Shown: positions 22,782 through 42,649, counted from the stretch's first letter. The stretch: 64,000 bases of DNA from an uncultured bacterium (GCA_964511015.1 CAZEDX010000002.1:197-64196); one strand, 5' to 3'. Made by a program: numbers and translations. Notes: generated from the sequence alone by a model not told the origin.

Positions 22782-22798
22782 GGCTTTTTCCTCCCGTC

Positions 22799-23685
<887 letters not shown>

Positions 23686-23689
<4 letters not shown>

Positions 23690-25487: not shown

Positions 25488-25547
25488 CTCACAGACCTCT
25501 CTCCGATTCAGGCAGTGCACCGTCCATCCTTGAATGACGTCACCAAG

Positions 25548-26597: not shown

Positions 26598-26661
26598 GCC
26601 ATCTCCTTTCGAAGGCCGGTATGTTCCCGGCTATTGATTGCGCTCGGAATGTAAAACCGGG

Positions 26662-26712
26662 CTGTTAGAGGGCCGTTAGCGAATGGATAGTTGTTGGTTT
26701 CCGGTCTGTTAG
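26662..26712. promoter_or_regulatory. Pho-box-like phased direct repeats (CTGTTAG n4 CCGTTAG ... CTGTTAG; 11-bp phasing) in the pstS / PAS-GGDEF divergent intergenic region
   Basis: Repeats begin at 26662, 26673 and 26706, i.e. spacings of 11 and 33 bp. They sit 65-115 bp upstream of the pstS start codon. They resemble the enterobacterial PhoB box CTGTCAT-n4-CTGTCAT. The TGT-containing strand is the + strand, pointing toward the divergent PAS-GGDEF-HD-GYP gene. Confidence 0.4.
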
Positions 26713-27046
26713 CATTTGCTTCTCTTCTCCGTCAATCAGATTGCGCAAAACACCTATTGGTCGCTCGTGCGCCTGCCGATACCAAGACTAGCGAGAAGGT
26801 ATATTCGGGAGCAGTCGGTCTATCTCGGGCAAAAATGAACGGACAAGAGTCGATGGAACGCGTAACGCTTGACTGCGAATGGCGGTTGTCGGATTCTGGT
26901 TTGGGGCATCAAAAGCTCACGCGAAAAATGCATCTTAGCTAACCTCCGGATCGGGATTCGGTGCCTCCAACGGCTTGTTACAGACCGTTCTTGACGAGGT
27001 ATTGAAGAAATATCGTTTGGGTCAAGGCCGAGGGGAAGCCGATACG

Positions 27047-29908
27047 ATGGACGAGGCAGCAAAAAATCGGCGTCGTTCGGAACTAGCGGCGGCCAAGGAG
27101 CGCATCGCTGAACTGGAGGCCCAACTCGCCGAGGCGCAAGCTCAAGCCACTAAGTACCTTCTCTTCCACGACACTTTCTTTTCCCTATTTGAGTTGACCA
27201 GTGCGGGGGTCGGTCTGATCCAGGACCACGCAATCATTTATGCGAACGACCGTTTAGGGCAGTTGTTGGGTCGGCCACCGGCAGAGATCCTCGGTCATCA
27301 TTTCACAGACTTCGTGGTGCCAGAACAACGCGAATGGCTCGCCGGTCTGTACGCGGCACATCTCGGTGGCAACAATGAGATCGACTGGACTACAGCGGCG
27401 TTGTTGAACAGCGATGGTTCGCCGGTGGACGTCGAACTGGAAGCTGCGGTGATCCGATACGACGGTAAGCCTACCGAGGTCGTGCTGGTTCGTGATATCC
27501 GGCGTCGCATCCGCGCCGAGCGCCTGTTACGTGATTCCGAAGAACGCTTCCGCATCGCCGCTTCGATTGCCGGCGACCTGATTTTCGAATGGACCTTGGA
27601 GGACAACCAGGTACGCTGGTTCAGCGATATCGACCGTTTGCTCGGCTACGAACCGGGCGGCTTCCCGCGTGAAGTGGCCGCGATGAACCAGCAAATCCAC
27701 CCCGACGACCGCGAACGCTTCTACCAAGCGGCGATGGAGTCCATCCGTACAGGTAATCCGTTTCGCGAGGAATACCGTCTGCGAAAGAAAAACGGCGAAT
27801 ACATTTATGTTTCCAGTCGTGGAATCGTGGTACACGATCGCGATGGTTGGCCGATCAAGTGGATCGGTGTGAACACGGACATTACCGAGCAACGCACAGC
27901 CGCTGATTCGCTGGCGGAATCACAAAGATACCTGGCCAATATCATCGACTTCCTGCCGGATGCCACGTTGGTCATCAACCACGAAGGCCGCGTCATCGCC
28001 TGGAACCGGGCGATGGAAGAGATGACCAGTGTTCCAGCCAAGGACATGCTCGGCAAAGGTAATTACGAATACGCGCTCCCCTTCTATGGCGAACGCCGCC
28101 CGATTCTAGTCGACATGGTGATGCAGAGACACCCGGAATTCGAGGCTCGTTATTCCGCCATTGTACGCAAAGACGAGACAATCTGGGGCGAGGCGTACAC
28201 GCCTTTCCTGGGCGGCGGGAAGATGTACCTTTCGGCCACGGCTGCGGTACTGCGAGATTCCAAAGGCAATGTCGCCGGGGCCATCGAGTCCATTCGGGAC
28301 AATACCGAACGTCAACAGGCCCAGGAAGCATTGCGCGCCAGCGAAGAAAAATTTCGCGCCTTAGCCGAGGGTTCGGCGGACGTCATCATGCGGTTCGACA
28401 CCGACTTCCGCCATGTCTATGTCAACCCCGCCGTCGAGGCCCAAACCGGCATTCCGCCAGCGGATTTTATAGGTAAAACCCATGCGGAATTGGGCTTCCC
28501 GCCACACCTGGTCGAGATCTTCGAAACCGCTCTGCACAAGACCGTCGAAACCCGCTCACCCAATCGTGTTGAATTCGAGTTGCCGAAACACATCTGGATA
28601 GACTGGGTGTTGACGCCGGAGTTTGGTCCTGACGGAAAGGTACAAGGGGTGATGACCGCCGCGCGTGACATCACCAACCTTAAGAACATTGAAAAGGCGT
28701 TGCAGGACAGTTTGGACCTGCTCGAAATGCGTGTGGCCGAACGAACCGCCGAACTCAGAGCACTCAATGAGTCGATGCAGATTGAAATCGCCGAACGCAA
28801 GCGCGCCGAAGAGTCTTTGCGCCGCAGCGAAGAGCGTTTTCGCTTTATGTCCTTCCACGACGCCATGACTGGCCTGTTCAACCGTACCTATTTCGACGAC
28901 AAAATGAAAGAGATCGACCAACAACTTGCCACGCTCTCCCCCCTGGCGATCATGGTCATGGACGTGGATGGACTAAAAATCGTCAACGACACATTGGGTC
29001 ACTCTGCCGGTGACGCGCTGCTGAACGCGGCGGCACGGGCGATCGGGCGTTCTTTCTCCGACGGTGCCATTCTCTGTCGCGTCGGTGGTGATGAATTCTG
29101 CGCCCTGTTGCCCGGAGTCGGTTGGGATGAAGCGGCGGCCAAACGCGATCAGATTCTAGAAAACGTACACTCGATTCAAGGCGAAAGTGAGGGGCCACGG
29201 CTGAGCCTCTCGATCGGCGTGGCTTGTTCGCTCGGTCACGAACGCGAAACCGCTTATGACGTATACCAGCGCGCCGATGAAGACATGTACCACTACAAAA
29301 TGATGCAGATCGGAAGCCCCAAGAGCCGCTTGATCGATGCCTTGTTGACCGCTCTGTCCCAGCGAGACTATGTCGCACAGGGACATGTGGAGCGACTGGC
29401 ACGGATAGCACGCATGATGGCCGACCGCCTTCGCCTACCGGAAAATCGCAAGAAAGATCTGTTGCTTTTGGCCAGAATGCACGATTTGGGAAAAATGGGC
29501 GTACCGGACCACATTCTATTCAAACCGGCGGCTTTGGATGATGCCGAATTCGATGCAATCAAAAAGCACGCTCACATCGGCCATAAAATCGCGACGCGGT
29601 CGCGAGAGCTTTCGCACATCGCGGCGCTTATTCTGCACCATCATGAATGGTGGGACGGCTCGGGCTATCCCTCCCACCTGCGTGCGGAGGCCATCCCACT
29701 CGAATGTCGCATCTTACATATTGCCGACGCTTTCGATGCCATGACCAATCCCCGGCCTTATCGCGGACCGCTAACAGGACGGGAAGCGATCGCCGAACTA
29801 ACGCGTAAGGCGGGCACCCAATTTGACCCCCATTTGGTGGAATGTTTTATTGAGCTGTACGATCAAGGGTTCTTCCGTGTAACACCCACTCCCGACAAAA
29901 ACCAGTAG
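27047..29908 (+). CDS. PAS/PAC-sensor protein with GGDEF (diguanylate cyclase) and HD-GYP (phosphodiesterase) domains
   Basis: ATG at 27047 has GAGGGGAAG 8 nt upstream; the track's TTG at 26975 is less likely. At least 4 PAS modules. GGDEF motif RVGGDEF. HD-GYP motifs HDLGKMGVP and HHHEWWDGSGYP. Confidence 0.9.
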   Translation: MDEAAKNRRRSELAAAKERIAELEAQLAEAQAQATKYLLFHDTFFSLFELTSAGVGLIQDHAIIYANDRLGQLLGRPPAEILGHHFTDFVVPEQREWLAGLYAAHLGGNNEIDWTTAALLNSDGSPVDVELEAAVIRYDGKPTEVVLVRDIRRRIRAERLLRDSEERFRIAASIAGDLIFEWTLEDNQVRWFSDIDRLLGYEPGGFPREVAAMNQQIHPDDRERFYQAAMESIRTGNPFREEYRLRKKNGEYIYVSSRGIVVHDRDGWPIKWIGVNTDITEQRTAADSLAESQRYLANIIDFLPDATLVINHEGRVIAWNRAMEEMTSVPAKDMLGKGNYEYALPFYGERRPILVDMVMQRHPEFEARYSAIVRKDETIWGEAYTPFLGGGKMYLSATAAVLRDSKGNVAGAIESIRDNTERQQAQEALRASEEKFRALAEGSADVIMRFDTDFRHVYVNPAVEAQTGIPPADFIGKTHAELGFPPHLVEIFETALHKTVETRSPNRVEFELPKHIWIDWVLTPEFGPDGKVQGVMTAARDITNLKNIEKALQDSLDLLEMRVAERTAELRALNESMQIEIAERKRAEESLRRSEERFRFMSFHDAMTGLFNRTYFDDKMKEIDQQLATLSPLAIMVMDVDGLKIVNDTLGHSAGDALLNAAARAIGRSFSDGAILCRVGGDEFCALLPGVGWDEAAAKRDQILENVHSIQGESEGPRLSLSIGVACSLGHERETAYDVYQRADEDMYHYKMMQIGSPKSRLIDALLTALSQRDYVAQGHVERLARIARMMADRLRLPENRKKDLLLLARMHDLGKMGVPDHILFKPAALDDAEFDAIKKHAHIGHKIATRSRELSHIAALILHHHEWWDGSGYPSHLRAEAIPLECRILHIADAFDAMTNPRPYRGPLTGREAIAELTRKAGTQFDPHLVECFIELYDQGFFRVTPTPDKNQ

Positions 29909-30022
29909 CCTTTACAAGCAGATTACAACGTGCAATATTGAAAAGTATAAGATAGTTAGCCAATTACTAGTGTAATAGACCAGAAAAGTGCAAGAAGTCA
30001 CAGGTGGAGTTTTCCGCCTATT

Positions 30023-33000
30023 TTGAGGACATTTTTATTCACCACTGCGCTTGATTGGGGAGGGCGCATGGCGAAGCATCCTGGCATCTGGTCGCGGCGA
30101 ACAGACAGCGAAGGCTATTGGAATCTCTTGCTGGTTACCGCGCTGGCAATAGCCGTTCTCCTTTTTCTGTTACGATCTAATGCAGTCAATCTTGACGAAT
30201 TCTGGCTTGCGTTCCTGTTTGAATACGTCGTCGCACTCTGGATTTCCTTCTCCATGCCCACGACACGTGTTATCACGTTGGCCTTGGTCGGAGCAGGGGT
30301 CGGCTGCGGCACCGAATTCACCGCTGCTCACGCGGAGTTGTGGACCTACGCCAACGACGTCGGTGTCGTCGCCGGCATTTTGATCTACAGCCTTACTGCG
30401 ATCGCGCTATTCGGCTTGGTCTATGTCATTAACCGTGTGCTGGCCCACCACAAATTCTTTCGGGCTACCGCCTGGGGCAATAGCCTGATCGTCCTGCTAT
30501 TGTTTCTGAGCCTATTCGCCTGGGCATATGGCCAAGAAAACAACCAATACTGGGCCAATATCTTTGCTCATCCAGTGGTGGTGATCTACTACTTCTTCCT
30601 GTTTCTTTTTGCGGTGACCATCGCATACTGCCTTCGGCTGAGTGCCTTGCTGGCAATCATCGCCGCGGCGGTGTTGGTCAGTCTCGTCGGACAGACGGCC
30701 GGCGGCATCTGGGCCGGGATCTGGCGATTCCTGCCCACTGCGCCAAAACCGGTCACCAGTCCACCCGACTACCTGGTCTACGCCTTGTGGCCGCTGGAGT
30801 ATTTTGTCGAGTTCGGATTCTCGGCCTTCCTGAGCGATCTGTTGATATATCTTTTCAAGGTTCGCCCGGAGCGCAATGGGAAAGACAATAAAGATCCGCA
30901 TCTTCCCATCCCTTTCTGGGATTGGAGCCATCCGGAAGGCCGGGTCGCCGGGCTGACTCGCGAAACCGGTCACTCCCTGGTTAAAATGTTGCGGCGCACG
31001 CCAGAAACCGGCGAGTTGATCGTGGCGATGGTTGGGCCGCTGGTCGTTTTCCTGTCCCTATTTCCCGAGCATCATTGGCGCCCCAGCCCCGGTGCGGCGA
31101 TCGCAAGCGCGGCGGTCTTTGGCATCGCACTGTTCGTCTCGTCGCGCCCCTACTGGAAGCGGACGGCGGCGCTGGTTGTCGGCGGTCTGGTATTCGGGGG
31201 TATGATCTGGATCGCGGCGGAAATGAAAGTACTTGGAGAAGCGCCGACGTTGCACTTGACCGCCCTGCCCTTGTCCGCGTTGCTTTTGGTGTCGATCTAC
31301 GGACTGGCGCATCTGACCACGCAGCTCTTTGCGCGACTGTTACCGGCCCAAAAGGAATGGGAGGACCATGGCGAGCCTAAACGGGCAGTCGTGTCGGTCG
31401 TGACGATTCTGATGCTGATCATTGTCGCCTTGTTTGTCTGGAATCCGGCATTCCTGTTTCCAGATCCCCACGCCGAGCCGGCCGGTGCGCCTGCGCTGTT
31501 CGTGTTCGGTTTTGGCGTGCTGCTGATCTTCACCCTTTGGTGGTACTTTTTTATGGTGCCGCTGCGGCGTAGTGCCATTCAGACCGTGGTTGCGGCACTG
31601 GCGACAGTTGTCTTCTTGCTGCCGATCGACTGGCGCGACGGACAGTTGGCCTGGCAACGTCTATTGTGGCAATCGGTCGGTCTAGTCATCGCTTATCTTT
31701 TTGTTTTTACAACCAGCGCACATGTGGCCAATGAACCATTGGCCAAAGCGATTCGGCGTACTTACTGGTGGCGGCGATGCGCCGGCAAGCGCGAGGTTGT
31801 ATTCCATGACAAACCGCACCAACAGGGTCGGCATCGAGTACTCGACAAAGATACCGGCGTGATGCACACCTACCCGCCAAAGGAGACCGGCGTCAGCGTT
31901 GCTGTAGCCACGCAACCCGAAGAGCCGGGGCAAACATTACCGACAATTCGGGAAACAGTCAGGTTGGCACTTGAACAACTCCGTGGGCACTGGCCAAAAC
32001 CCGGCACCACCGACCAGACGGTGGAAAAGGTCAAAGAAGCGGTGGCCGGCAAGACGGTCTTCATCAAACCGAACATCGTCGTGCCTACCGGCAGCCCCTA
32101 TACGACCGATGCGGACCTCGTCGACGAAGTTGCCAAGTACTGCCTTGAACACGGCGCCGCGAAGGTGCTGATCGGCGAAATCGCCATCAGCAACATTACT
32201 TCGCGCATGTCGCTGGTGGGTACCGGCGTGTACGACTACTGGAAACGAAGAAATGGCGTAGAGGTACACCTGCTTGATGAGGAAATGCTGATCCGCGTGC
32301 ACCTCAGCGACGATCCGGGTAACAAAATTCACCCCGCCGACCCGACGGGCGCGCCTGATCCGCAATGCCCCGTTCCAGCCGAAACGCAAAACCGGGTCGT
32401 CTTCAATCAGTTTCACATGCCGTATTTGATGGTCGACGCCGACACCTTCTTCATCGATATCCCGAAGATGAAAACGCACTTACAGTCGGCGGTCACGCTG
32501 GGCATCAAGAACTCCCACGGCGCCATCGCCGAGTGCGACCGCGGCTGCAAACACCAGCAGATCTCGCAGAAGGTGGTCGACATCACCAAGGTGTGGCTGC
32601 CTGATTTGACAATCGTCGACGGCTACGATGCGTTGGAAGGCATCGGACCCTGGCCTGGCGATCTAGTGCCGCTACGCGCCGTGATTGCCTCCAATGACGT
32701 GGTCGCCGCCGACCTCGTGGCCGGCCAGATGATGTGGAAAGAGCCGGTGGAGGGTAGAACGCCGGCCGAGAGTGCTCCCGATTTCCGCTCGCCGGTCGAT
32801 TTCGACACGAAGTTTGTCAAGACGACCTGGCTGGGCTACGAGCAGCGGCTGGGCCTACTCGATCCACGCGCGGTGAAATACGACTATTCCACCAACGACC
32901 CAGACTGGAACACCTTCCTGAGGAGACACTGCTACGAGCGGCCGTTCCGCGATCCGGACTACTGCGACGAAGGCCTGATTATGAACATCGGCCAGCGAGT

Positions 33001-33538
33001 CGGCGGCGAAGTCGATTTCGCCACGAAACCGTTGGTGCAAGAATATGATCCGCTGGAAAACAAATGGCTCAAGTGGCCGGCCAATCGCGAGTACCTGCCG
33101 CTCAGGGTAAACACTATCGTGCCCCCTTTCCCGGCGCTGCAGCAACCCACGCGTGCCTGGGGTCCGGCGCAAATGATCGCCGACGAATTCCGCTTCCCCG
33201 ACCTTGGTTCGTCGGTGATGTTCTCCGGCGTTTTCGGCCTGATGAAATGCGTGTTGGAGGACCACTTCACCCGCGAACTGAACGTACTGGACGGCTTCGC
33301 CATTGTGTATGGCCCGCTACGGAAGCCGCTGGTCTGCGAGGGCGCCATTCTGTTTGGCGACGGCGCAATCTCTACCGAATACCTGGTGTTCTCGCCGCGC
33401 ATCTACCCGTTGGCGGGCAAGGGCAAACCGCCAAACCGATACTCCGACATCTTCGAGCGCTTGTCGCAGGAGCTGGGTGGCAAGATTCTTAGCTTCGCTA
33501 CCGAAGCCATCACCGCCACCCGAGGATGGTACTGGTAA
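30023..33538 (+). CDS. Giant polytopic membrane protein (~14 predicted TM helices, aa 1-600) fused to a cytoplasmic DUF362 domain plus ~270-aa C-terminal extension
   Basis: Long hydrophobic helices throughout the N-terminal 600 aa. DUF362 hallmark VFIKPNIVVP...TDADLV...IDIPKMKTHLQSAVTLGIKNSHG...IVDGYDALEGIGPWPGD...IASNDVVAADLV. Alternative start is the ATG at 30068 (GGGGAGGG upstream). Confidence 0.8.
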   Translation: MRTFLFTTALDWGGRMAKHPGIWSRRTDSEGYWNLLLVTALAIAVLLFLLRSNAVNLDEFWLAFLFEYVVALWISFSMPTTRVITLALVGAGVGCGTEFTAAHAELWTYANDVGVVAGILIYSLTAIALFGLVYVINRVLAHHKFFRATAWGNSLIVLLLFLSLFAWAYGQENNQYWANIFAHPVVVIYYFFLFLFAVTIAYCLRLSALLAIIAAAVLVSLVGQTAGGIWAGIWRFLPTAPKPVTSPPDYLVYALWPLEYFVEFGFSAFLSDLLIYLFKVRPERNGKDNKDPHLPIPFWDWSHPEGRVAGLTRETGHSLVKMLRRTPETGELIVAMVGPLVVFLSLFPEHHWRPSPGAAIASAAVFGIALFVSSRPYWKRTAALVVGGLVFGGMIWIAAEMKVLGEAPTLHLTALPLSALLLVSIYGLAHLTTQLFARLLPAQKEWEDHGEPKRAVVSVVTILMLIIVALFVWNPAFLFPDPHAEPAGAPALFVFGFGVLLIFTLWWYFFMVPLRRSAIQTVVAALATVVFLLPIDWRDGQLAWQRLLWQSVGLVIAYLFVFTTSAHVANEPLAKAIRRTYWWRRCAGKREVVFHDKPHQQGRHRVLDKDTGVMHTYPPKETGVSVAVATQPEEPGQTLPTIRETVRLALEQLRGHWPKPGTTDQTVEKVKEAVAGKTVFIKPNIVVPTGSPYTTDADLVDEVAKYCLEHGAAKVLIGEIAISNITSRMSLVGTGVYDYWKRRNGVEVHLLDEEMLIRVHLSDDPGNKIHPADPTGAPDPQCPVPAETQNRVVFNQFHMPYLMVDADTFFIDIPKMKTHLQSAVTLGIKNSHGAIAECDRGCKHQQISQKVVDITKVWLPDLTIVDGYDALEGIGPWPGDLVPLRAVIASNDVVAADLVAGQMMWKEPVEGRTPAESAPDFRSPVDFDTKFVKTTWLGYEQRLGLLDPRAVKYDYSTNDPDWNTFLRRHCYERPFRDPDYCDEGLIMNIGQRVGGEVDFATKPLVQEYDPLENKWLKWPANREYLPLRVNTIVPPFPALQQPTRAWGPAQMIADEFRFPDLGSSVMFSGVFGLMKCVLEDHFTRELNVLDGFAIVYGPLRKPLVCEGAILFGDGAISTEYLVFSPRIYPLAGKGKPPNRYSDIFERLSQELGGKILSFATEAITATRGWYW

Positions 33539-34824
33539 TGGTCACCCCTCAACTGTTCAACGATGACCTAGCGCTGAAGGAATGGTTTTACGTCTACTAC
33601 ATCAAATGGATGGAAGTTGCCGAGAATGGGCGCTGGATGGCAGAGGGGCGCGGAATTAAGAACCCTTTGGTCTGGATTCCTCTCATGCCTTTCGGTCAAC
33701 AGCCGGCCGAACCATTCCACTACCTATTGACCGCATTGATCGACGCGCAACTGTGCAAGGTCGCACATAAACCGACCCACCGCTATGGCGGCGTCGGGAA
33801 TATGGCGACGATCATCGTCGACCCGCCGTCATCCAATCCGAGCGGGCCGGTGCCGTTCGTCATGTTCGAAGAAGTGGATGGCGGCATCGTCACCGACTAT
33901 CGCATGTACCCCAACGTGAACTGGCCAACGGCGGCGCGGCAACTGCAAATCGAGGGCTTTGATACCGCTGGCTGCTATCGCAAGTTTGTGCACACCTCCT
34001 TCCTGCGCCAGATCTACGAACTCCATCAGCAATGGCTGACCGACAGCGACAACGCGCGCTATCTGATCGGTTTCGCGGTCGCCCTGTTCAAGGCCCTGGA
34101 CAAGAAGAAGGCAAATGTCGATCCGCGGCCGCCGATGTTGGCCAACCTGCTAGCGGTGAAGAAGCAGATCAAGGTCGGCGACATCGACGTGGGCGGTACG
34201 TTGCTCAAGTACGCCCACCTGATGCCGAATCTGATTATCGAAGGACGCGGCGGCGACATGTTCATCGACCTGGGTGGACGCTTCAACCTGGTGTTGACCG
34301 ATGTGGCCCTCTTGTCCCTACTCGACTGTTTCAAATTCAACAATACATTGCCCACCCTGTCCTCTTCGCTCATCGCCTTCGCGAGCCAGGGGTTGCAGCG
34401 CGGCTGGATCAAGATCGACGGCGTGCGCTGGATGTCCAAGCTTTCGGCCGTTTTCTTGCGCCGCCGCATACGGTCCCTACCGCAAAAGGTGGCCCTGCTG
34501 ACCAAGATCATGGGGAACCCCTTCCGTCTGATGTTGAGCACCAACAACAAGGGCGTCGTCATCACCTTGAAAGACGGCCTGCCCGAGTCGATCAACCCGG
34601 CGGTCTTCCCCAGCGATCCAACCGACCTGCGCGGTCTGTGGCTTCACAATTGCGAAAAGCACGGGTTCATTCATCTCGCGGCGCGGCCGCGAGGCGGCGA
34701 ACTCAGCTTGCAGTTGTCGGATCAACTCGACTATTATCCGCAAAACGATTTTGTAAAATACATTATGCGAAAAGGAGCGTTGCAATTCCTGTTCGGGTTG
34801 GTATTCCCGTTTTTGTCTGACTAG
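33538..34824 (+). CDS. Hypothetical soluble protein (428 aa), no recognisable motifs
   Basis: The ATG at 33538 overlaps the upstream stop (TAATG). Uniform coding composition, no TM segment, no recognisable domain. 6-nt gap to the next gene. Confidence 0.7.
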   Translation: MVTPQLFNDDLALKEWFYVYYIKWMEVAENGRWMAEGRGIKNPLVWIPLMPFGQQPAEPFHYLLTALIDAQLCKVAHKPTHRYGGVGNMATIIVDPPSSNPSGPVPFVMFEEVDGGIVTDYRMYPNVNWPTAARQLQIEGFDTAGCYRKFVHTSFLRQIYELHQQWLTDSDNARYLIGFAVALFKALDKKKANVDPRPPMLANLLAVKKQIKVGDIDVGGTLLKYAHLMPNLIIEGRGGDMFIDLGGRFNLVLTDVALLSLLDCFKFNNTLPTLSSSLIAFASQGLQRGWIKIDGVRWMSKLSAVFLRRRIRSLPQKVALLTKIMGNPFRLMLSTNNKGVVITLKDGLPESINPAVFPSDPTDLRGLWLHNCEKHGFIHLAARPRGGELSLQLSDQLDYYPQNDFVKYIMRKGALQFLFGLVFPFLSD

Positions 34825-34830
34825 TGGGAC

Positions 34831-37800
34831 TTGAAAACGATGGTGGGCAGGACACTCCGTAATCGCTACCAATTGCGCCACAAGATCGGCCAAGGAGGCT
34901 GGAGCGAGGTCTACGAAGCGTTCGACCTGCAAGAAAACGTGCCGGTTGTCGCTAAAATTATGGAAGCTGGCCGAGACACCACTCATGACAATATGGTGTT
35001 GTTGTTCCAGCGCGAAGCCGTGTCCCTCTTGCGCTACCACCACCGGCACATCGTCAAGATTGTTGACTTCGGCGAAGACCAAGGCTCCTGCTTCATCATC
35101 ATGGAACACGACAACGGATTGTCACTGTTCCACTACCTGACCACCCAGGAATGGCCGACCATTTCCGAAGTCGTTCGCCTGATGATCCAGATCACCGAGG
35201 CGCTGCAGTACCTGCATGCCACCGGCAGCGTGCACCAGGATCTCAAACCATCTAACTTGATTCTGAAGGACGGCCGTATTGACCAATGCAAGATCGTGGA
35301 CTTTGGCTGTGTGCTGCTGAAGAATCTCGTCTACAGTTCGACCAAGCAGATCATCACCGGCACATTCCCCTATATTTCTCCGGAACAACTCGGTGCATAC
35401 AACAACGTCGTCGACCACCGCAGCGATCTCTACTCACTCGGCGTCATCTTTTACGAGTTACTTTCCGGCACCCGTCCATTTCCGCCGGACATGACTGCCA
35501 ACGACATTCTGCAAGGACGCTTCGATCGCATCGTGCCTCCTAGCCGGCTGAATCCGCTGATCCCGGAAGTGCTCGACCGCATTGTCATGAAGCTGATCGA
35601 GCACGATCCGAAGAACCGCTATCAGACTAGTGCCGGCTTGTTGGAGGATCTGAGCCAGTACCAGATACTGTCCACGCGAACGGTCGGCTCACCGTATTTT
35701 CGCATTGGCAAAGCCGACGCGAAAGGCAATTTGGAGTTCGACGTTCCGTTAATCGGACGTGAAGAAGAGTTGGCCGATCTTCGTCAGATGTTGCAACAAG
35801 CCAAAACCAAAGGCGCAATGCTGCTGTTAGGGGGCGAGACCGGATCAGGCAAGTCGCGTTTGCTCGAAGAGTTCCGCCTGTCATTGGCCGCATCGGAGCA
35901 GATCTACCTCTTCAGCAAATGCAGCGAAAGCAATATCAACTTCCCGTATTTTCCGCTGATCCAGATCTTTCATGACTATTCCGAATACCTCTCGACCTTG
36001 TCGCCCGAGGATGCCGCGCCACACCACGCCATCATCCGCGAGGCGCTGACCCCGTTCCACACGGAGTTGGCCAACCTGGCGCCGGCCATCGTCAAACTAT
36101 TGCCACCCACTCCTCCTGCGGCTCATACTGATGACCCGACAACCCGCATGCTGCAGTTCCAGGAAAAAATTGGTGAGTTTTTCGCGACAGTTGCCGAACG
36201 CATCAAACCGTTGGTGGTAGTGTTCGAAGACATGCACTGGGCCGACGCCGGCACATGTCGTTTCTTGCAAGTGCTGACGCCGATGCTGAATGAAAGACGA
36301 AATCTGTTGTGCATTCTGTCGTACCGGTCGGAAGAGGTCGATGATCACCCGAATCTGAAAGAGCTGCTGAATCGCGTTCGGACCAACAAGGGAAACCTGG
36401 TCTGGCTGCGCGTATCACCGCTGCCACCGATGACGGTTTGGGATTTCGTCGCCACCATCGTCCCGGAGGGCACGGAAGGCTACTCCGATCTCATGCGACT
36501 GCTGATTGAGTTCGGCCGTGGCAACCCGTTGTTCTTGATCGAATTGATCCGGGCCTTAATGGTGGAAGAAGCGATCGTGCGTGATGGGACTCGTTGGCAA
36601 ATCGCCCGCGAACGATTGAACGTTCCGGCGGTCGGATTGTCGCTCGCCGAGATCATCATTCGTCGCACCAAACAGCTCTCGAACGAGTGCAAGAAGGTAC
36701 TGGGAACCGCCTCGTGCGTCGGCCGCACCTTTTCCTCACACCTGCTGGCGGACATTGTCGGCTTGCCGGTTCGCGACCTGCTTACTTATCTGGATGAAGC
36801 TCTGCGCTCGCGGCTGGTTCTGCGGCGAGGTGTGGTCGACGGTGACAACTATTCCTTCACCCACGACCGCATCCACGAGACGTTTTACCAGAGCGTCGAT
36901 CCGATTGTCCGGCGAAACTTGCATCTGCTGATCGCCCAAACGTTGGAGCGGCAGAACCAAGCCGATCCTCGTAAAGCGGTCTACGAACTCGCCTTCCACT
37001 TCCTGCGAGCCGACGAGCCTGCCCGTGCATTCCGCTATGTCTTACAGGCGGCCGATGCCGCCCAGTATTCCATGGCCATGCACCAGGCCGCGCAGTACCT
37101 GGAACAAGGGCTCGACCTATTGGGGCGTCTGCCTACCGGAGTGGATTTCCTGGCGGCTGATCCCTCCCCACTGCGCGCGGCAGTCCGACAACGCACGAAC
37201 AAACCGGTCAGTCCGCGACGCGAGTTGGAAGAACGCATCCGGGAAGACCTGGCCGATGTTTACCTGTTCATCGGCGAATACGACAAGGCTATCGAAAACT
37301 ACAATCGGGTGCGTTCGGAAGGCATGGATTTGGTCAGTCTAGCGGTCTTGGAACGGAAGATCGGTACCGTGTATGTCCGGCGCGGGGATTTGCCGTTGGC
37401 TATTGAACACTTCCACGCCGGCATACGACATCTGCGCGGTGGCATGTCCCAAACGCGCGTCGGCGCGATCGCGCACAGCATCTGGTATATGCTTTTGAAC
37501 GGCTGTCAGTTTCTGCTACCGGCCCGGTTGCGGCGCCTATGCTTTAGCCGCCGCCAACAACAGGTCAAGGAACTGGTGGCCATGTACAACCTCACCTCCT
37601 TCGCCTATTTCTGGGTGGATGTCGGACGTGCTTTGGAGGTACAGGCCAAGGCCCGCTTCCTGGTCAATTTCCTGGATCACTCGTCCGTGGTCACGCGCGT
37701 TCTCGACCAGATGATCGTATTCTGGTCACTCTTCTCGGTCGGTTGGCTGTCACGGCGCAATGCTCGGGTCAGCCAGTCGATATGCCGCGAGTTGGGTGAC

Positions 37801-38865
37801 CAGCACGCACTGGGCAACAGTCTGTACTACGAAGGCCTCTCCCATCAGTTCGCCGGCCGCCTTGAACAGGCAAGCAAGGTTTTCCAACAAGCGATAAAAA
37901 TCCATGAACAGATCGGCGCGCTGTTCGAACTGGAATTGGAATATACCTCCTATGCACAATCGTTGCGTCACATGGGCCGCCTGGACCAGGCCTGCGACTA
38001 CCTGCTGAAATCAAAAGAAATCGCCGAAGCGGTGCGTGACTTCCGGGGCATCGCCGACGCCCACTATGAGCTGGCCGAGTATTTCTACTACACCGGGAAC
38101 TTCGAAGAAGCGCGGCGCAACGTGGCGATCTGCTTCGAATACACAACCAAAGACTCCAACCCATTGTTGTATGCCATCGCCAAGCGGGTACTGGCCAAGA
38201 TCTTGCTGCGGGAAGGCAAGACCGAGCAGGCCATCGAATTGTTGGAAGAAAGCCGGCAGGTAGCCGCCGGAAGGAAACTGGCCGGGGAATACATCATCGA
38301 CAACGAGTTGAGCCTCGGCGAGGCATATTTGCGCCGGTTGAAGGAAAACCCGGAAATGTCTCCCAAGGAACGTCGCCGCACTCTACGTCGGGTGGCTTCC
38401 TTGCAGAGGCAAACACGTTTTAGTTCCTCCACTTATCGCAACTACCTTGGCTCGTCCTATCGCCTCAAAGGCCTATTGCGCGCCGCGCAACACCGGACTC
38501 GCGAAGCCCGTTTTTTCCTGGGACGGGCAGCATCCATGATGGAGCGCGCCGGCCAACTCTACGAGTTGGGCCGTACCAAAGTAGCGCTGGCCGACCTGCT
38601 CGAGTCCACCGACCAGACAGCGGCCACGCGTTTGCGGGCCGACGCATACTTGTTGTTTGAGTCCTGCAACGCACGGGGTGATATGAGGCAGTTGGCAATC
38701 TCGGCCAAGGCAATCGATCCCGGCCGGATATCGTCTCGGTTGGTGGCGGATTCGTCGCGTGGAGGTGGCTCGCCATTGGCCTCTCCCACACTCGACAGCA
38801 TTCTGGTTTCATCAAGCCGGCGCAAGGTCGACGAAAAACCCACTGAGCCGGTCTGTCAGGATTAG
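34831..38865 (+). CDS. Ser/Thr protein kinase fused to STAND/AAA ATPase and TPR-rich C-terminal region
   Basis: Kinase motifs are the Gly-loop IGQGGWSEVY, Lys VVAKIM, catalytic HQDLKPSNL (Q replaces the usual R), DFG and SPE. Walker A GETGSGKS and Walker B VVVFEDMHWAD. About 700 aa of TPR-like helical repeats follow. Confidence 0.9.
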   Translation: MKTMVGRTLRNRYQLRHKIGQGGWSEVYEAFDLQENVPVVAKIMEAGRDTTHDNMVLLFQREAVSLLRYHHRHIVKIVDFGEDQGSCFIIMEHDNGLSLFHYLTTQEWPTISEVVRLMIQITEALQYLHATGSVHQDLKPSNLILKDGRIDQCKIVDFGCVLLKNLVYSSTKQIITGTFPYISPEQLGAYNNVVDHRSDLYSLGVIFYELLSGTRPFPPDMTANDILQGRFDRIVPPSRLNPLIPEVLDRIVMKLIEHDPKNRYQTSAGLLEDLSQYQILSTRTVGSPYFRIGKADAKGNLEFDVPLIGREEELADLRQMLQQAKTKGAMLLLGGETGSGKSRLLEEFRLSLAASEQIYLFSKCSESNINFPYFPLIQIFHDYSEYLSTLSPEDAAPHHAIIREALTPFHTELANLAPAIVKLLPPTPPAAHTDDPTTRMLQFQEKIGEFFATVAERIKPLVVVFEDMHWADAGTCRFLQVLTPMLNERRNLLCILSYRSEEVDDHPNLKELLNRVRTNKGNLVWLRVSPLPPMTVWDFVATIVPEGTEGYSDLMRLLIEFGRGNPLFLIELIRALMVEEAIVRDGTRWQIARERLNVPAVGLSLAEIIIRRTKQLSNECKKVLGTASCVGRTFSSHLLADIVGLPVRDLLTYLDEALRSRLVLRRGVVDGDNYSFTHDRIHETFYQSVDPIVRRNLHLLIAQTLERQNQADPRKAVYELAFHFLRADEPARAFRYVLQAADAAQYSMAMHQAAQYLEQGLDLLGRLPTGVDFLAADPSPLRAAVRQRTNKPVSPRRELEERIREDLADVYLFIGEYDKAIENYNRVRSEGMDLVSLAVLERKIGTVYVRRGDLPLAIEHFHAGIRHLRGGMSQTRVGAIAHSIWYMLLNGCQFLLPARLRRLCFSRRQQQVKELVAMYNLTSFAYFWVDVGRALEVQAKARFLVNFLDHSSVVTRVLDQMIVFWSLFSVGWLSRRNARVSQSICRELGDQHALGNSLYYEGLSHQFAGRLEQASKVFQQAIKIHEQIGALFELELEYTSYAQSLRHMGRLDQACDYLLKSKEIAEAVRDFRGIADAHYELAEYFYYTGNFEEARRNVAICFEYTTKDSNPLLYAIAKRVLAKILLREGKTEQAIELLEESRQVAAGRKLAGEYIIDNELSLGEAYLRRLKENPEMSPKERRRTLRRVASLQRQTRFSSSTYRNYLGSSYRLKGLLRAAQHRTREARFFLGRAASMMERAGQLYELGRTKVALADLLESTDQTAATRLRADAYLLFESCNARGDMRQLAISAKAIDPGRISSRLVADSSRGGGSPLASPTLDSILVSSSRRKVDEKPTEPVCQD

Positions 38866-38894
38866 GAATTTGATTCTAGGAAGGGCCCACTGCT

Positions 38895-40178
38895 ATGAAG
38901 ATCGTGCTGATATCGCCGAAAGCCAAGGTGAATGAGGCCATTAAAAGCGTGACCGGTTTCCGCATCGCACAGATGAGCCTGGCGCAAGTCGCCGCTTGTA
39001 TGCCTCCGGATGTCGAAATCGAATTGGTGGACGAACTTATCCGTCCGGCGCCTCCGGATACCGACGCCGATCTCGTCGGAATTTCAGTAATGACCGAAGT
39101 GGTCGAACGAGCGTACGAAATCGCCGACGAATACCGCCGACGCGGCAAGTCCGTCATCATGGGTGGTATTCACCCCACCCTGCTGCCACAAGAAGCATTG
39201 CAACACTGCGACGCCGTCGTCGTCGGTGAGGCCGAAGGCCAGATGGAACAGCTAGTCAAGGATTTCCGCGCCCAACGCATGCGTAGCATCTACGCTCGTG
39301 ATTCATTGGCTGATCTGAAAGGCCTGCCGTGGCCACGTCGCGATCTGCTAGATCGGCGCAACTACCGAACCATCAACTGCGTTCAAGTCAGCCGCGGCTG
39401 CCCCAACCAGTGTGATTTTTGCATTGTGCCTGTGGTCCACGGACGTAAGTATCGTTCACGGCCGGTCGACGACGTGTTGGCGGAAATCGACACCCTAGAA
39501 GGTCGCGAGTTGTTTTTCGTCGACGACAATCTGGCGGGTAATCGCAAGCACGCCCTGGAATTCTTCAAGGCGTTGGCCTCGCGGAACCGGCTTTTCGTCG
39601 GCCAATTGTCAGCCACGACGCTCAAAGACGAAGAAATGCTGCGGACATTGCGGCGAGCGGGCGGAGTCGGGTTCTTCATCGGCCTGGAATCAATCTCTCA
39701 GAACACACTGGATTCGGTCGGCAAGCGCCAAAAGGCCGCGGAGTACATCGACGGTATCAAAAGGCTCCATGACCACGGTATGACAATGGCAGGAGCCTTC
39801 GTTTTCGGCTTGGATTCCGACGAGGTGGACGTTTTCGAACGCACGATCGAGTTTGTGGATAAGTCCGAAATCGACATTGTCCAGTTCACGTTGTTAACAC
39901 CCTTTCCGGGCACCCCGATCTATAAACGCCTTAGCCAGGATGGCAGACTGGTCGATCCCCAATGGTGGCTGACCAGCACATGGAATCATGTTCCATATCA
40001 ACCACTTAGATTTTCCAGACAAGAGCTTCGAGAGAAATGGATCTGGGCTCTGAAGGAGACTTACCGATTGCCCCGGGTATTCAAACGAACCACCAGATTG
40101 CTACACCGGCGGTCATTTCCGGCCAACCTGATCACCTACCGAGCCAACCTAGCTTATCGAGAAGGCTTGGCTTTCTAG
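38895..40178 (+). CDS. B12-binding domain radical SAM protein (class B radical SAM)
   Basis: AGGAAGGG upstream of the ATG. N-terminal Rossmann-like cobalamin-binding region. Radical SAM cluster motif VSRGCPNQCDFC. 29 nt downstream of the kinase gene. Confidence 0.85.
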   Translation: MKIVLISPKAKVNEAIKSVTGFRIAQMSLAQVAACMPPDVEIELVDELIRPAPPDTDADLVGISVMTEVVERAYEIADEYRRRGKSVIMGGIHPTLLPQEALQHCDAVVVGEAEGQMEQLVKDFRAQRMRSIYARDSLADLKGLPWPRRDLLDRRNYRTINCVQVSRGCPNQCDFCIVPVVHGRKYRSRPVDDVLAEIDTLEGRELFFVDDNLAGNRKHALEFFKALASRNRLFVGQLSATTLKDEEMLRTLRRAGGVGFFIGLESISQNTLDSVGKRQKAAEYIDGIKRLHDHGMTMAGAFVFGLDSDEVDVFERTIEFVDKSEIDIVQFTLLTPFPGTPIYKRLSQDGRLVDPQWWLTSTWNHVPYQPLRFSRQELREKWIWALKETYRLPRVFKRTTRLLHRRSFPANLITYRANLAYREGLAF

Positions 40179-40764: not shown

Positions 40765-40832
40765 TTCCGCCTAGTACCTACGCCCTGTATAGCCTCAGGG
40801 CTTGCTCGTAGTTGGACGGAAATGGCTCGGTA

Positions 40833-40856
40833 GCTGTGCCCCTTTTGGGGCACAGC
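40833..40856 (+). terminator. Hairpin GCTGTGCCCC-tttt-GGGGCACAGC downstream of the RRM gene
   Basis: Perfect 10-bp stem with a 4-nt loop, 69 nt after the stop. A T-rich stretch (cttgttctttt) follows shortly but not immediately. Confidence 0.5.
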
Positions 40857-41868
40857 GCCGGGCTTGTTCTTTTAAGGCCTCCCCTTTGCGAACACGATAC
40901 TTGTTCGTCGCCAACACTGCTGTTGCTTATGTCCATATTTCTGGCGTGAGCAGTATTCTCGTCTTTTGTTCCCGTTTCAGCAAAAGAGCCCACCTTAGGA
41001 CACGGTATTTCCTATACTTTGACCTTAGATGTCGCTGCACATATAGCCACAACTGTTCGTTCTGGCATCGTCGCCCAGTCCGCCCGGGTCTCAACAGCGC
41101 GGCAGCGGCCGGCTAAAGCCAGTGCCTTGTACGACCCATCTTCATGAGCGGCAATTACAAGCTGCCGGTGAACTTCGTGAAAGTAGGCTACATGTTCCAG
41201 CTTTGCCAACCATCTCCGCTCTCACGACGTCTGGCGCACCAAGCCGAGTTGGCGGATTCGGCAGCCGCAGCCTTACCGCAAAATGGCGGTGTTCATCTTG
41301 AGGAGCGGCGAACAGCCACAGACGGCAACACCCTGGTCCTCGTCAACGTGTCCTGTTACAAGGGTGTGGTCTATGCAGGTGAATATGTTTCTCCAAAAGG
41401 ATTTCAACACCGCCGCTCTAAGGTGTCCATCTGAAGTTGTGCCAATTCCGATCAAGCCGAAGTTGAAAAGTAGTCCGTTTTCTTCGCGCAACACCGCGAA
41501 AACCAGGACCAGCAAGGCGATTAGCGCTTGTACCATTTGGAATCTCAGAGCCGCCCCATTCGGCGTTGGTTGACTGAATACCTCTTGCTGATTGCACGTT
41601 CATAAATAACTTGACAGTACAGCAATCGACCGCCCTGGAGCGTCGGAAGCGGCGGCTTGATGACACCAACTGGCAGATGTCTCACCTCTGGACGGAGACA
41701 GCCTACCTTACCCTCATTCTCTGTGCGTTCAACTGACCTCAACAACACCCCTTACCGAAGGGCTACATTTGTCCATGAGGCCCTGACGACAAACACTCTA
41801 TTTGTACTGGAAGCGGCTGGAGTCGCGTAACAAAGTTCCGCGCGGCGCGCAGCTGGTTCTGCATATAT

Positions 41869-42183
41869 TTGTTCATTGAATTATGCGCCTTGACTGCAGC
41901 ATTTGTCGGTTCGTCTCCGTGGGTCGCCCGAATTCTCATGCTACTGCTGGTTGGACTCTTCGCCACCGACGGCGTATTGCTGTGGCGAGGTGGCCGTGTG
42001 GTGATTCTCTTGCAGGTAAGCGCCGACTTGGCATTGGCGGCTTTCGGCGCGGTGGCATTGGCCCTGGCCAATGCTTCGCCGTTGGCGTTCGCCGAGCCTA
42101 TAGCGGCCGCAGTGATCGGCCTGGCGATGTTGGCTTCACCCATTCGAAAACTACTGCACCATACTCCCGATCCCAACGTATAA
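41869..42183 (+). CDS. Possible small membrane protein (3 TM), TTG start or internal ATG
   Basis: High-GC, hydrophobic ORF (LMLLLVGLFATDG..., ALAAFGAVALALA...). No clear RBS. Low confidence. Confidence 0.3.
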   Translation: MFIELCALTAAFVGSSPWVARILMLLLVGLFATDGVLLWRGGRVVILLQVSADLALAAFGAVALALANASPLAFAEPIAAAVIGLAMLASPIRKLLHHTPDPNV

Positions 42184-42190
42184 CACGGGT

Positions 42191-42649
42191 TCACATCAAT
42201 CCAGCCTGGTGCAGTCTGTTCAACATCCGCTCTTTGTGTGTACCGGCCCAATAGATCCGCCCACACTGCAGACAGCGGGAAAATGTCTTTTGAGTGGCAA
42301 AAACATAGGGCGGCACCAGTCCGCGCACTTGGTCCCGTGTTAGAGTCTCGACCTTCGCATCACACACTGAGCAAACGGTCAGCATCCGATCGGATTCAAT
42401 CGCGAGAGCGAATCGCTGCACAACTTGCCGCAACTGCACCATGGTATCGCTTGACGACAGTTGGCAGACCGTGGACGCGTCACCCATCCGGCGGTTCTTG
42501 GTCAACAGAACACGGTCTTCTTCCAGTGCGTGTGCCAACAGACGGTCGGGATCCGACTCGCGATCAATCCGGCAGTCGTAGCCCAACAGACGCAGCCATC
42601 GCGCCAAACGGCCTACGGTTTTGTCGGCGAGAAACCTTGGTGCGTCCAT
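42191..42649 (-). CDS. Mut7-C/DUF82 family protein (PIN-like RNase domain + C-terminal zinc ribbon)
   Basis: N-terminus PRFLADKTVGRLARWLRLLGYD. C-terminal CSVCDAKV...CLQCGRIYWAGTH. Start placed at the internal ATG (152 aa, family-typical size). The longer track ORF to 42883 would overlap the divergent glycosyltransferase gene. Confidence 0.7.
   Translation of the reverse strand: MDAPRFLADKTVGRLARWLRLLGYDCRIDRESDPDRLLAHALEEDRVLLTKNRRMGDASTVCQLSSSDTMVQLRQVVQRFALAIESDRMLTVCSVCDAKVETLTRDQVRGLVPPYVFATQKTFSRCLQCGRIYWAGTHKERMLNRLHQAGLM

What the first reader, a model, noticed from the sequence alone, without database searches (positions are those of the whole stretch)
30023..40178. Tightly coupled four-gene operon: polytopic-membrane::DUF362 giant, orphan protein, Ser/Thr-kinase-STAND-TPR, B12-radical-SAM. 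Candidate undescribed membrane-associated system.
The four + strand genes are packed with a TAATG overlap, a 6-nt gap and a 29-nt gap, so they are almost certainly co-transcribed. The combination is unusual. The first gene is a 1171-aa protein whose first ~600 aa are about 14 TM helices, fused to a cytoplasmic DUF362 domain of unknown function. The second is a 428-aa soluble protein with no recognisable motif. The third is a eukaryotic-type Ser/Thr kinase with HQD instead of HRD in the catalytic loop, fused to a STAND NTPase and a long TPR array, i.e. a signal-integrating regulator. The fourth is a cobalamin-dependent radical SAM enzyme. Members of that class carry out difficult methylations or C-C chemistry on lipids, cofactors and peptides. 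I know of no characterised pathway with this gene set. A membrane-embedded modification system (for example lipid or envelope polymer tailoring under kinase control) is one reading, but it is inference only.
Basis: partly seen in the sequence, partly recalled or inferred. Interest (0 to 1): 0.78.

Follow-up and report, generated by a model that had tools for sequence, protein, structure and literature searches.

The report
Membrane LarA-like enzyme module with kinase
The four genes are real and recur together, but the conserved unit is an undescribed pair found in bacteria and archaea (a membrane-anchored enzyme-like protein shaped like lactate racemase, plus a dedicated partner of a new family), and the kinase and the B12 radical-SAM enzyme are optional add-ons.

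Summary
All four + strand genes exist as described, with small corrections to two start codons. Domain calls are confirmed: g1 is a polytopic membrane domain plus DUF362. g2 has no known family. g3 is an HQD (non-RD) Ser/Thr kinase with a STAND ATPase and TPR array. g4 is a cobalamin radical-SAM enzyme.

Comparative data change the picture. The g2 family is tiny: 25 representatives among 1.84 billion proteins. In all 13 lineages whose context I could read, plus one fragment, g2 lies directly downstream of a DUF362 gene, usually overlapping it. The g1 membrane domain is built from repeats of a ~100-aa unit. In two lineages, one clearly archaeal, that unit is a free-standing 110-aa gene upstream of a soluble DUF362 gene.

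The kinase-STAND gene accompanies the pair in 4 of 13 lineages. Elsewhere its place is taken by a cyclase-STAND protein or a PAS histidine kinase. The B12 radical-SAM gene is present in 4 of 13 lineages and a calcineurin-like phosphoesterase in 3 of 13.

Function is still unknown. I favour a membrane-bound, cofactor-dependent small-molecule-converting complex coupled to a signalling switch.

The parts
29911..29939 (+). sigma-70-like promoter candidate upstream of g1 (TTTACA-17-AATATT). It overlaps a TTTACA-N5-ATTACA direct repeat.
   Evidence: consensus match only, and the count does not exceed shuffles. Repeat seen. Weak.
30068..33538 (+). g1: 1156-aa membrane-anchored DUF362 protein (1171 aa if the TTG at 30023 is used). 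It ends in the conserved ...RGWYW.
30068..31747 (+). g1 membrane domain (aa ~1-560, 13-16 TM helices). It is built from repeats of a ~100-aa unit carrying intramembrane motifs TE..A...LW.Y and G..W.F..PP.YL...WP.E. No Pfam or NCBIfam family matches.
   Evidence: Archaeal-type 110-aa stand-alone homologues match aa 24-124 and 172-260 at 94% hhalign probability.
32057..32722 (+). g1 DUF362 domain (aa 664-885). Conserved residues: KPN (aa 667-669), KTH (His804), IKN (Lys814), His829.
32723..33535 (+). g1 C-terminal extension (aa 886-1156). This is the most conserved part of the family (VYGPLRKPLxCEGAILFGDGA ... RGWYW).
33538..34824 (+). g2: 428-aa soluble partner protein of a new family. Its start overlaps the g1 stop (TAATG).
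34840..38865 (+). g3: non-RD (HQD) Ser/Thr kinase, STAND (AAA_16) and TPR. Kinase 34867-35628, AAA_16 35746-36312, TPR about 37228-38265. Start could be the TTG at 34831.
38895..40178 (+). g4: class B (cobalamin-binding) radical-SAM enzyme with a DUF4070 tail. B12-binding 39057-39254, radical-SAM core 39384-39854, CxxxCxxC at 39399-39422.
26975..29908 (+). Context only: PAS-GGDEF-HD-GYP c-di-GMP protein directly upstream on the same strand. Lineage C has an FHA-GGDEF protein at the same position.

Best explanation
Shown:
- The locus holds a conserved core made of three elements: a ~100-aa four-helix membrane unit (here repeated and fused), a cytoplasmic DUF362 domain with a lactate-racemase-like fold, and a dedicated soluble partner (g2).
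- g1 and g2 are translationally coupled.
- A signalling protein is attached to this core in a modular way. Here it is a PknK-like non-RD Ser/Thr kinase with a STAND ATPase and TPR sensor. Elsewhere it is a cyclase-STAND protein or a PAS histidine kinase.
- A tailoring enzyme is also attached in some lineages. Here it is a B12 radical-SAM enzyme, and elsewhere a calcineurin-like phosphoesterase.

Inferred mechanism:
- The membrane repeats hold or deliver a hydrophobic or imported small molecule at the cytoplasmic face.
- The DUF362 domain converts it, using a His...Lys...His site equivalent to LarA's catalytic His174, cofactor-tethering Lys184 and metal-ligand His200. The likely chemistry is a hydride-shuttle isomerisation or a redox step.
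- g2 is an obligatory subunit, for example for substrate presentation or cofactor handling.
- g4 adds a radical modification, such as a methylation, to the same substrate or product.
- The STAND kinase couples the state of this complex to cellular signalling.

My confidence in the anatomy and the modular evolution is about 0.85. My confidence in the enzymatic mechanism is about 0.4.
For: - Domain calls.
- The g2 family has only 25 hits among 1.84 billion representatives.
- Every readable context (13 lineages plus one fragment) has a DUF362 gene immediately upstream of g2.
- Stop/start overlap TAATG or TGATG is present in the four closest lineages.
- Stand-alone 110-aa membrane proteins upstream of soluble DUF362 in two lineages, one clearly archaeal, match the g1 TM domain twice at 94% probability. 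There is also an internal duplication.
- DUF362 and the LarA N-terminal domain (DUF2088) share Pfam clan CL0471 (PMC11770544).
- H-x9-K-N-x2-G-x~10-H is conserved across DUF362. A non-significant hhalign alignment places it on LarA His174 and Lys184.
- Accessory genes recur in different flanks: kinase-STAND in A, B, C, F; cyclase-STAND in G; PAS histidine kinase in I, J, L; radical SAM in A, B, C, G; Metallophos in E, F, G.
- None of these neighbours has a DNA-binding output, which argues for post-translational coupling.
Against: - No biochemical datum exists for any DUF362 protein.
- The LarA alignment is not significant at sequence level (E 0.31). LarA His108 and Arg75 have no equivalents.
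- No larB, larC or larE genes are in the window or in any of the 13 contexts (and the context tables).
- The g2 structure model is poor (pLDDT 53), so its role is a guess.
- Lineages D, K and M carry the core without any signalling or tailoring neighbour, so g3 and g4 are dispensable for the core function.
- No Ser/Thr columns specific to kinase-bearing lineages were found in g1 or g2.
Confidence: 0.45

Rival explanations
1. Sensor reading. g1+g2 is not a metabolic enzyme. It is a membrane-embedded ligand sensor, with the LarA-like domain acting as a ligand-binding module. It feeds the adjacent cytoplasmic or membrane transducer: STAND kinase here, cyclase-STAND or PAS histidine kinase elsewhere.
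For: - A signalling or regulatory protein (CBS counted) is adjacent and co-oriented in 10 of 13 lineages, and the transducer type is swapped between lineages.
- The histidine kinases have no adjacent response regulator, and no neighbour has a DNA-binding domain.
- g3 has no TM segment of its own.
- Non-deltaproteobacterial lineages sit among pectin or uronate genes. LarA homologues act on 2-hydroxy or sugar acids.
Against: - Strict family-wide conservation of the His/Lys/His and KPN residues fits catalysis at least as well as binding.
- The archaeal-type three-gene modules and lineage D have no transducer nearby.
- A B12 radical-SAM enzyme or a phosphoesterase is not expected in a pure sensor.
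Confidence: 0.25
2. Only g1+g2 form a functional unit. g3 and g4 are unrelated neighbours, kept together in a few related deltaproteobacterial genomes by shared ancestry.
For: - The window and lineage B share flanks (pst-phoU upstream, RRM gene downstream), so that conservation is vertical.
- 9 of 13 lineages lack the radical-SAM gene and 9 of 13 lack this kinase.
- Lineage C has a 165-nt hairpin-rich spacer between g2 and g3.
- STAND kinases and B12 radical-SAM paralogues are, from general knowledge, abundant in such genomes. A second radical-SAM gene lies 4 kb downstream in L001.
Against: - The g1-g2-STAND order persists in four different flanking contexts (A/B, C, F, G). The radical-SAM gene persists in three (A/B, C, G) at 43-68% identity.
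- In G the kinase head is replaced by a cyclase while a STAND protein and the g4 orthologue stay in place.
- Gaps in the window are 1, 15 and 29 nt, with no terminator-like site standing out above shuffles.
Confidence: 0.17
3. Anti-phage or conflict system: the STAND-TPR sensor has a kinase or cyclase signalling head and activates a membrane effector (g1/g2).
For: STAND-TPR sensors, swapped signalling heads (kinase or cyclase), Metallophos and Roc-GTPase neighbours and TM effectors are features I associate with defence systems from general knowledge. The g3 kinase domain hits PD-T4-6 and mad6 models.
Against: - PADLOC has no hit for g1 or g2, and g3 hits cover only the generic kinase domain.
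- Flanks are housekeeping or transport genes (pst, RRM, der, era, rnc).
- The module is absent from plasmids.
- It also occurs as a three-gene module among archaeal informational genes without any sensor.
- The family is extremely rare, unlike widely transferred defence systems.
Confidence: 0.05
4. Peptide (RiPP-type) maturation cluster, in which the radical-SAM enzyme and the kinase modify a small precursor peptide.
For: g4's nearest solved relative, MgmA, methylates a protein. g3 gives sub-threshold hits to the TOMM kinase/cyclase and lanthionine synthetase kinase models.
Against: - There is no room for a precursor gene inside the block (gaps of 1, 15 and 29 nt).
- No RiPP-type protease or exporter was seen among the flanking genes scanned.
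- All RiPP-related NCBIfam scores are far below cut-off.
- The core g1/g2 occurs without the radical-SAM gene in 9 of 13 lineages.
Confidence: 0.03

Closest known systems
LarA lactate racemase and LarA-superfamily 2-hydroxy-acid racemases/epimerases (DUF2088; PDB 5HUQ, 7S91, 9EIA, 9Q3J)
   Same: - Same Pfam clan, CL0471.
- A conserved His-x9-Lys...His pattern lies where LarA has catalytic His174, nickel-pincer-nucleotide (NPN)-tethering Lys184 and Ni-ligand His200.
   Different: - 10-13% identity and no significant sequence or profile match.
- No equivalents of LarA His108 or Arg75.
- No lar cofactor-synthesis genes nearby.
- g1 is fused to a 13-16-helix membrane domain and always paired with g2. 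LarA enzymes are soluble and stand alone.
DUF362 family (Pfam PF04015), uncharacterised
   Same: g1 aa 664-885 matches at 105.8 bits against a cut-off of 24. It shares all family-wide invariant residues.
   Different: g1-type proteins form a sharply separate subgroup: close relatives have E below 1e-100, then scores drop to 1e-27. They carry an N-terminal membrane domain and have the g2 partner.
PknK of Mycobacterium tuberculosis and the MalT subfamily of STAND proteins
   Same: The architecture is an N-terminal Hanks-type Ser/Thr kinase, then a STAND NTPase (AAA_16), then a helical-repeat sensor. PknK is cited as a STAND kinase of the MalT subfamily in PMC4381067.
   Different: - The HQD (non-RD) catalytic loop is conserved in all four orthologues.
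- TPR_MalT scores below cut-off (30.7 against 45).
- Orthology to PknK was not tested.
- The genomic partner (g1/g2) is different.
Class B cobalamin-dependent radical-SAM enzymes (MgmA 9CCB, AprD4 6FD2, BchE, HpnJ/HpnR/HpnP, ladderane-lipid rSAM)
   Same: - B12-binding, radical-SAM and DUF4070 domains and the CxxxCxxC motif.
- The best solved relatives are MgmA (E 4e-16) and AprD4.
- DUF4070 is mentioned in a paper on hopanoid methylase HpnP (PMC10697835). I did not read the passage, and its presence in HpnP is from general knowledge.
   Different: Every named equivalog scores at about 10-35% of its cut-off (for example BchE 98 against 481, ladderane 95 against 360). Substrate and reaction cannot be assigned.
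TOMM system kinase/cyclase fusion protein (TIGR03903)
   Same: A kinase or cyclase head on an AAA_16-TPR body. The head swap between lineages A-C, F (kinase) and G (cyclase) mirrors that family's mixed architecture.
   Different: The score is 239 bits against a cut-off of 705.75, and only the STAND part aligns. No TOMM genes are present.

Membership tests
DUF362 (PF04015) | HMM match above the gathering score | tested here: met
   105.8 bits against a cut-off of 24, aa 664-885, profile positions 1-198 of 200.
LarA superfamily (DUF2088 / nickel-pincer racemases) | LarA-type two-domain fold | tested here: met
   [not shown]
LarA superfamily (DUF2088 / nickel-pincer racemases) | Sequence or profile match to LarA/DUF2088 | tested here: not met
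   No Lar_N/DUF2088 hit in Pfam. No PDB hit with the sequence or the profile. hhalign against LarA gives E 0.31.
LarA superfamily (DUF2088 / nickel-pincer racemases) | Cofactor and catalytic residues Arg75, His108, His174, Lys184, His200 (roles from PMC11770544) | tested here: inconclusive
   g1 His804, Lys814 and His829 reproduce the H-x9-K spacing and nearly the K-x15-H spacing, and they are family-wide invariant. The non-significant hhalign puts His804 on His174 and Lys814 on Lys184. No equivalents of His108 or Arg75 were found.
LarA superfamily (DUF2088 / nickel-pincer racemases) | larB, larC and larE cofactor-synthesis genes in the genome | tested here: inconclusive
   None is in the 64-kb window or in the 13 neighbourhoods. 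The rest of the genome is not available.
Hanks-type Ser/Thr protein kinase | Pkinase HMM plus catalytic Lys, HxD loop, DFG and APE-like motifs | tested here: met
   152 bits against 31.7. VAKI at aa 40, HQDLKPSN at 135, DFG at 157, SPE at 183. HQD replaces HRD in all four orthologues.
STAND NTPase, MalT/PknK type | AAA_16 NTPase with Walker A and B, followed by a helical-repeat sensor | tested here: met
   AAA_16 89.7 bits against 32.6. GGETGSGKS and VVVFEDMHW motifs. TPR_12 71.5 bits against 30.1. TPR_MalT itself is below cut-off (30.7 against 45).
TOMM kinase/cyclase fusion (TIGR03903) | Equivalog score above cut-off | tested here: not met
   239 bits against 705.75.
Class B (cobalamin) radical SAM | B12-binding domain, radical-SAM core and CxxxCxxC | tested here: met
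   PF02310 51.8 bits against 32.1. PF04055 79 bits against 29.5. CPNQCDFC at aa 169.
Named B12-rSAM equivalogs (BchE, HpnJ, HpnR, ladderane rSAM, MgmA, PhpK) | Equivalog score above cut-off | tested here: not met
   Best scores are 98 against 481 (BchE), 95 against 360 (ladderane) and 93 against 578 (HpnJ).
Known anti-phage defence systems (PADLOC) | Model hits to the system's specific components | tested here: not met
   g1 and g2 give no hit. g3 hits only with its kinase domain. g4 gives E 1e-6 to one candidate model.
Lycopene-cyclase-domain / carotenoid membrane proteins (idea from memory of a PxEE motif) | HMM match of the g1 membrane domain | tested here: not met
   No relevant Pfam or NCBIfam hit at E up to 10 in eight lineages.

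The most novel reading that the evidence does not exclude
The core is a previously unrecognised three-component membrane enzyme shared by Bacteria and Archaea. Its parts are a ~100-aa four-helix membrane unit, a LarA-fold DUF362 domain and the g2 partner. The DUF362 domain carries a Lys-tethered cofactor, either nickel-pincer-like or new. The complex acts on a membrane-embedded or imported substrate, and its state is read by swappable signalling heads. This would give the first function and cofactor for the large DUF362 family.
Probability: 0.25. Interest if true: 0.8.

Novelty: categorically new. Interest (0 to 1): 0.6.

Why it matters
- DUF362 has no assigned function in any paper I could find. 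From general knowledge it is a large Pfam family.
- This locus shows that one DUF362 subgroup is always coupled to a dedicated partner protein and to a specific membrane unit. It has a LarA-like fold with a conserved His/Lys/His site.
- Those results give concrete, testable handles: cofactor analysis, g1-g2 complex formation and point mutants.
- It also gives a natural example of one STAND scaffold carrying either a kinase or a cyclase head next to the same target module. That is useful for understanding how bacterial STAND switches are wired.
- If the cofactor is nickel-pincer-like, the known reach of that chemistry would extend to membranes and to Archaea.

Tried and rejected
1. The full-length g1 homology search returned only itself, because hydrophobic words filled the candidate list. 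Searching with the C-terminal half worked.
2. The exact-match look-up of the window's g2 found no contig.
4. The PDB sequence/profile searches found nothing for the g1 C-terminal half, a chance-level CheA hit (E 0.06) for g2, and nothing relevant for the DUF362 profile.
5. The lycopene-cyclase-like idea for the membrane domain got no HMM support.
6. Defence-system reading: PADLOC matched only the generic kinase domain.
7. RiPP reading: there is no space for a precursor gene and all scores are sub-threshold.
8. Pho-box search upstream of g1 found no motif shared across lineages.
9. Kinase-lineage-specific Ser/Thr sites in g1 and g2: none found.
10. Rfam: no family in the window, so no cobalamin riboswitch.
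11. g2 is not found on plasmids.
12. The Foldseek afdb50 library was unavailable.
13. The apparent split of g1 in lineage B is rejected as an assembly artefact.
Full report
**Observation**

The window carries four co-directional ORFs at 30023/30068-33538, 33538-34824, 34831/34840-38865 and 38895-40178. The g1 stop and the g2 start overlap as TAATG, and g3 and g4 are 29 nt apart.

Two starts need correcting. The public protein for g1 is 1156 aa (ATG at 30068). Orthologues of g3 begin at the ATG at 34840, so the g2-g3 gap is 15 nt and not 6.

Pfam confirms the following:
- g1: DUF362 at aa 664-885, E 3.9e-30.
- g2: no family.
- g3: Pkinase, AAA_16 and TPR.
- g4: B12-binding, Radical_SAM and DUF4070, with CPNQCDFC.

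The kinase has VAKI, HQDLKPSN, DFG and SPE motifs. The HQD loop is conserved in all four orthologous kinases. Hydropathy gives 13 peaks in g1 aa 17-554, and probably 16 helices once merged stretches are split.

**Surroundings**

The region is chromosomal:
- pstSCAB-phoU lies divergently upstream.
- A PAS-GGDEF-HD-GYP gene lies directly upstream on the same strand.
- An RRM RNA-binding gene lies downstream, followed by der, era, rnc, ligA and others.

There are no tRNAs, no Rfam families and no cobalamin riboswitch. A promoter-like site sits at 29911-29939. Promoter-like and terminator-like counts do not exceed shuffles.

**Neighbourhood conservation**

g2 has five homologues in a 5.8-billion-protein word-indexed search. 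It has 25 in an exhaustive profile search of 1.84 billion representatives. None of the ten remote members scanned carries a Pfam domain.

I read the context of 13 lineages plus one fragment. In every case g2 is immediately downstream of a DUF362 gene.

| Lineage | Loci | What is there |
|---|---|---|
| A | window | g1, g2, g3, g4 |
| B | L007 = L008 (Deltaproteobacteria MAG fen_1099) | Same four genes, same flanks as A |
| C | L001-L006 | Same four genes, different flanks, FHA-GGDEF upstream, 165-nt hairpin-rich g2/g3 spacer |
| D | L009-L013 | Only g1+g2, among sulfatase, pectate-lyase-like and TonB-receptor genes |
| E | L014 | g1+g2, with a TPR protein and a Roc-GTPase::Metallophos protein upstream and GH28 downstream |
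| F | L015 | g1, g2, g3, then a Metallophos phosphoesterase. NaPi-cotransporter/PhoU upstream |
| G | L016 = L017 | g1, g2, Zn-ribbon + nucleotide cyclase + AAA_16, g4 orthologue (43% identity), Metallophos |
| H | L025 | Soluble DUF362, g2, CBS protein |
| I | L026-L028 | TM-DUF362, g2, PAS histidine kinase in one string |
| J | L029-L030 | TM-DUF362, g2, PAS histidine kinase in one string |
| K | L031-L032 | 110-aa membrane protein, soluble DUF362, g2. Low-GC locus, domain not established |
| L | L033 | PAS histidine kinase, TM-DUF362, g2 in one string |
| M | L034-L035 | 110-aa membrane protein, soluble DUF362, g2, among archaeal TFIIB, S8e and CGI-121 genes |
| fragment | L036 | g2 overlaps the end of a DUF362 C-terminal fragment |

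Among the closest lineages, g1 identity to the window is 42-47% for C-G alike. Carriers and non-carriers of the kinase and radical-SAM genes are therefore at similar distances from the window, and I infer that the accessory genes have been gained or lost more than once.

**The fusion is real**

TM::DUF362 is one ORF in ten lineages. The split in lineage B comes from a 28-nt palindromic insertion in L007 and an NN gap in L008 at the same spot. Removing it gives a 1139-aa ORF.

**The membrane domain**

No Pfam or NCBIfam family matches the membrane domain in eight lineages. It has invariant intramembrane polar and aromatic residues: R67, E83, W92, Y94, N138, R190, W219, P233, W241-P242 and E244. 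It is internally duplicated (hhalign 88%).

The 110-aa proteins of lineages K and M match it twice at 94% probability (aa 24-124 and 172-260) and once weakly. The bacterial domain is therefore an amplified, fused version of a small membrane subunit that is a separate gene in K and M. The basic stretch after the last helix places the DUF362 domain in the cytoplasm (inference from the positive-inside rule).

**The DUF362 half**

LarA binds its nickel-pincer nucleotide through Lys184, Arg75 and His200, and it catalyses with His108 and His174. DUF362 proteins, including g1, have invariant KPN, K-T-H, I-K-N..G and a later His. The spacing H-x9-K is identical to LarA's, and K-x14-H compares with LarA's K-x15-H.

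I verified the LarA sequence against 5HUQ. A low-stringency hhalign puts g1 His804 on His174 and Lys814 on Lys184, but the alignment is not significant (E 0.31). His108 and Arg75 have no counterparts. No lar genes are nearby. So g1 works like LarA at the level of fold and possibly of cofactor tethering, but it is not a member of the LarA family.

**g2**

**g3 and g4**

g3 has the architecture of the PknK/MalT-type STAND kinases and has no TM segment. g4 is a class B radical-SAM enzyme. Its nearest solved relatives are MgmA and AprD4, and it reaches no named equivalog. PADLOC matches only the generic kinase domain.

**Interpretation**

Its system hypothesis is partly right:
- A conserved, undescribed module does exist, but it is the TM-unit/DUF362/g2 core.
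- The kinase-STAND and B12 radical-SAM genes are one of several interchangeable accessory sets.
- The adjacent signalling proteins never carry DNA-binding outputs, and their type is swapped between lineages. I read this as post-translational coupling between the core and a signalling switch.

I favour an enzymatic core with a LarA-like cofactor site acting on a membrane-held or imported small molecule. g4 would be a tailoring enzyme and g3 a coupling switch. The main rival is that the core is itself a ligand sensor.

Substrate class is open:
- Weak hints point to lipids or isoprenoids: g4's relatives include hopanoid and ladderane enzymes, g2 gives SCP2/LCP-like hits, and HMG-CoA synthase and lipid genes lie near the modules of lineages K and M.
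- Other hints point to sugar or hydroxy acids: LarA chemistry, and pectin/uronate genes around lineages D, E, I, J and L.

**Novelty**

No paper in the searchable library links DUF362 to a function or to this gene set. The core fails every membership test for a characterised family, so I rate it as lying outside known kinds of system. Its function is unproven.

Noticed in passing
window 22128-26597 (minus strand) and ~26660-26700; L015 5688-7352 and ~7400-7440: Phosphate genes sit divergently upstream of the module in separate contexts: pstSCAB-phoU in the window and lineage B, and a NaPi-cotransporter/PhoU gene in L015. Metallophos genes flank it in L014, L015 and L016. 11-bp-spaced direct repeats (CTGTTAG/CCGTTAG upstream of pstS, and GCTAAC repeats in L015) look like Pho boxes. 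A link to phosphate limitation is possible.
   Followed up: partly
window 29911-29927: A direct repeat TTTACA-N5-ATTACA overlaps the -35-like hexamer upstream of g1. It may be a response-regulator site. It is not conserved in other lineages.
   Followed up: partly
window 26975-29908; L001 5153-6061: A c-di-GMP enzyme gene lies directly upstream of g1 on the same strand in two lineages: PAS-GGDEF-HD-GYP here and FHA-GGDEF in lineage C. An FHA domain next to a Ser/Thr kinase module suggests phospho-Thr-dependent coupling to c-di-GMP.
   Followed up: no
L007 7730-7760 / L008 8270-8280: A 28-nt insertion in L007 is the reverse complement of the sequence just upstream, and L008 has an NN gap at the same site. 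Together they create a false split of g1 in lineage B.
   Followed up: yes
L009 5711-6585: The region between the sulfatase gene and g1 holds several tandem copies of a ~76-nt unit, a TGCAAAT microsatellite and a run of N. The nature of the repeat array is unknown.
   Followed up: no
window 40800-42200: About 1.4 kb downstream of the RRM gene has no convincing ORF and no Rfam hit. The short ORFs there were not scanned against Pfam.
   Followed up: partly
window 13227-15923 and 55025-56653: Two long ORFs (898 aa and 542 aa) have no Pfam family at E up to 1e-5.
   Followed up: no
window 2243-5440: A 1065-aa protein combines an N-terminal PilZ domain (a c-di-GMP receptor) with methyltransferase-domain hits in two regions (aa ~739-783 and ~907-1046). 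This is an unusual architecture.
   Followed up: no
L009, L014, L026, L029, L033: Outside the deltaproteobacterial lineages, the DUF362+g2 module sits next to pectin or uronate-related genes: a Pect-lyase-like gene, GH28, Pec_lyase+GH123, PcRGLX and UxaC.
   Followed up: partly
L001 20518-20979: A second B12-binding radical-SAM gene lies 4 kb downstream of the module in lineage C. It may be a paralogue of g4.
   Followed up: no
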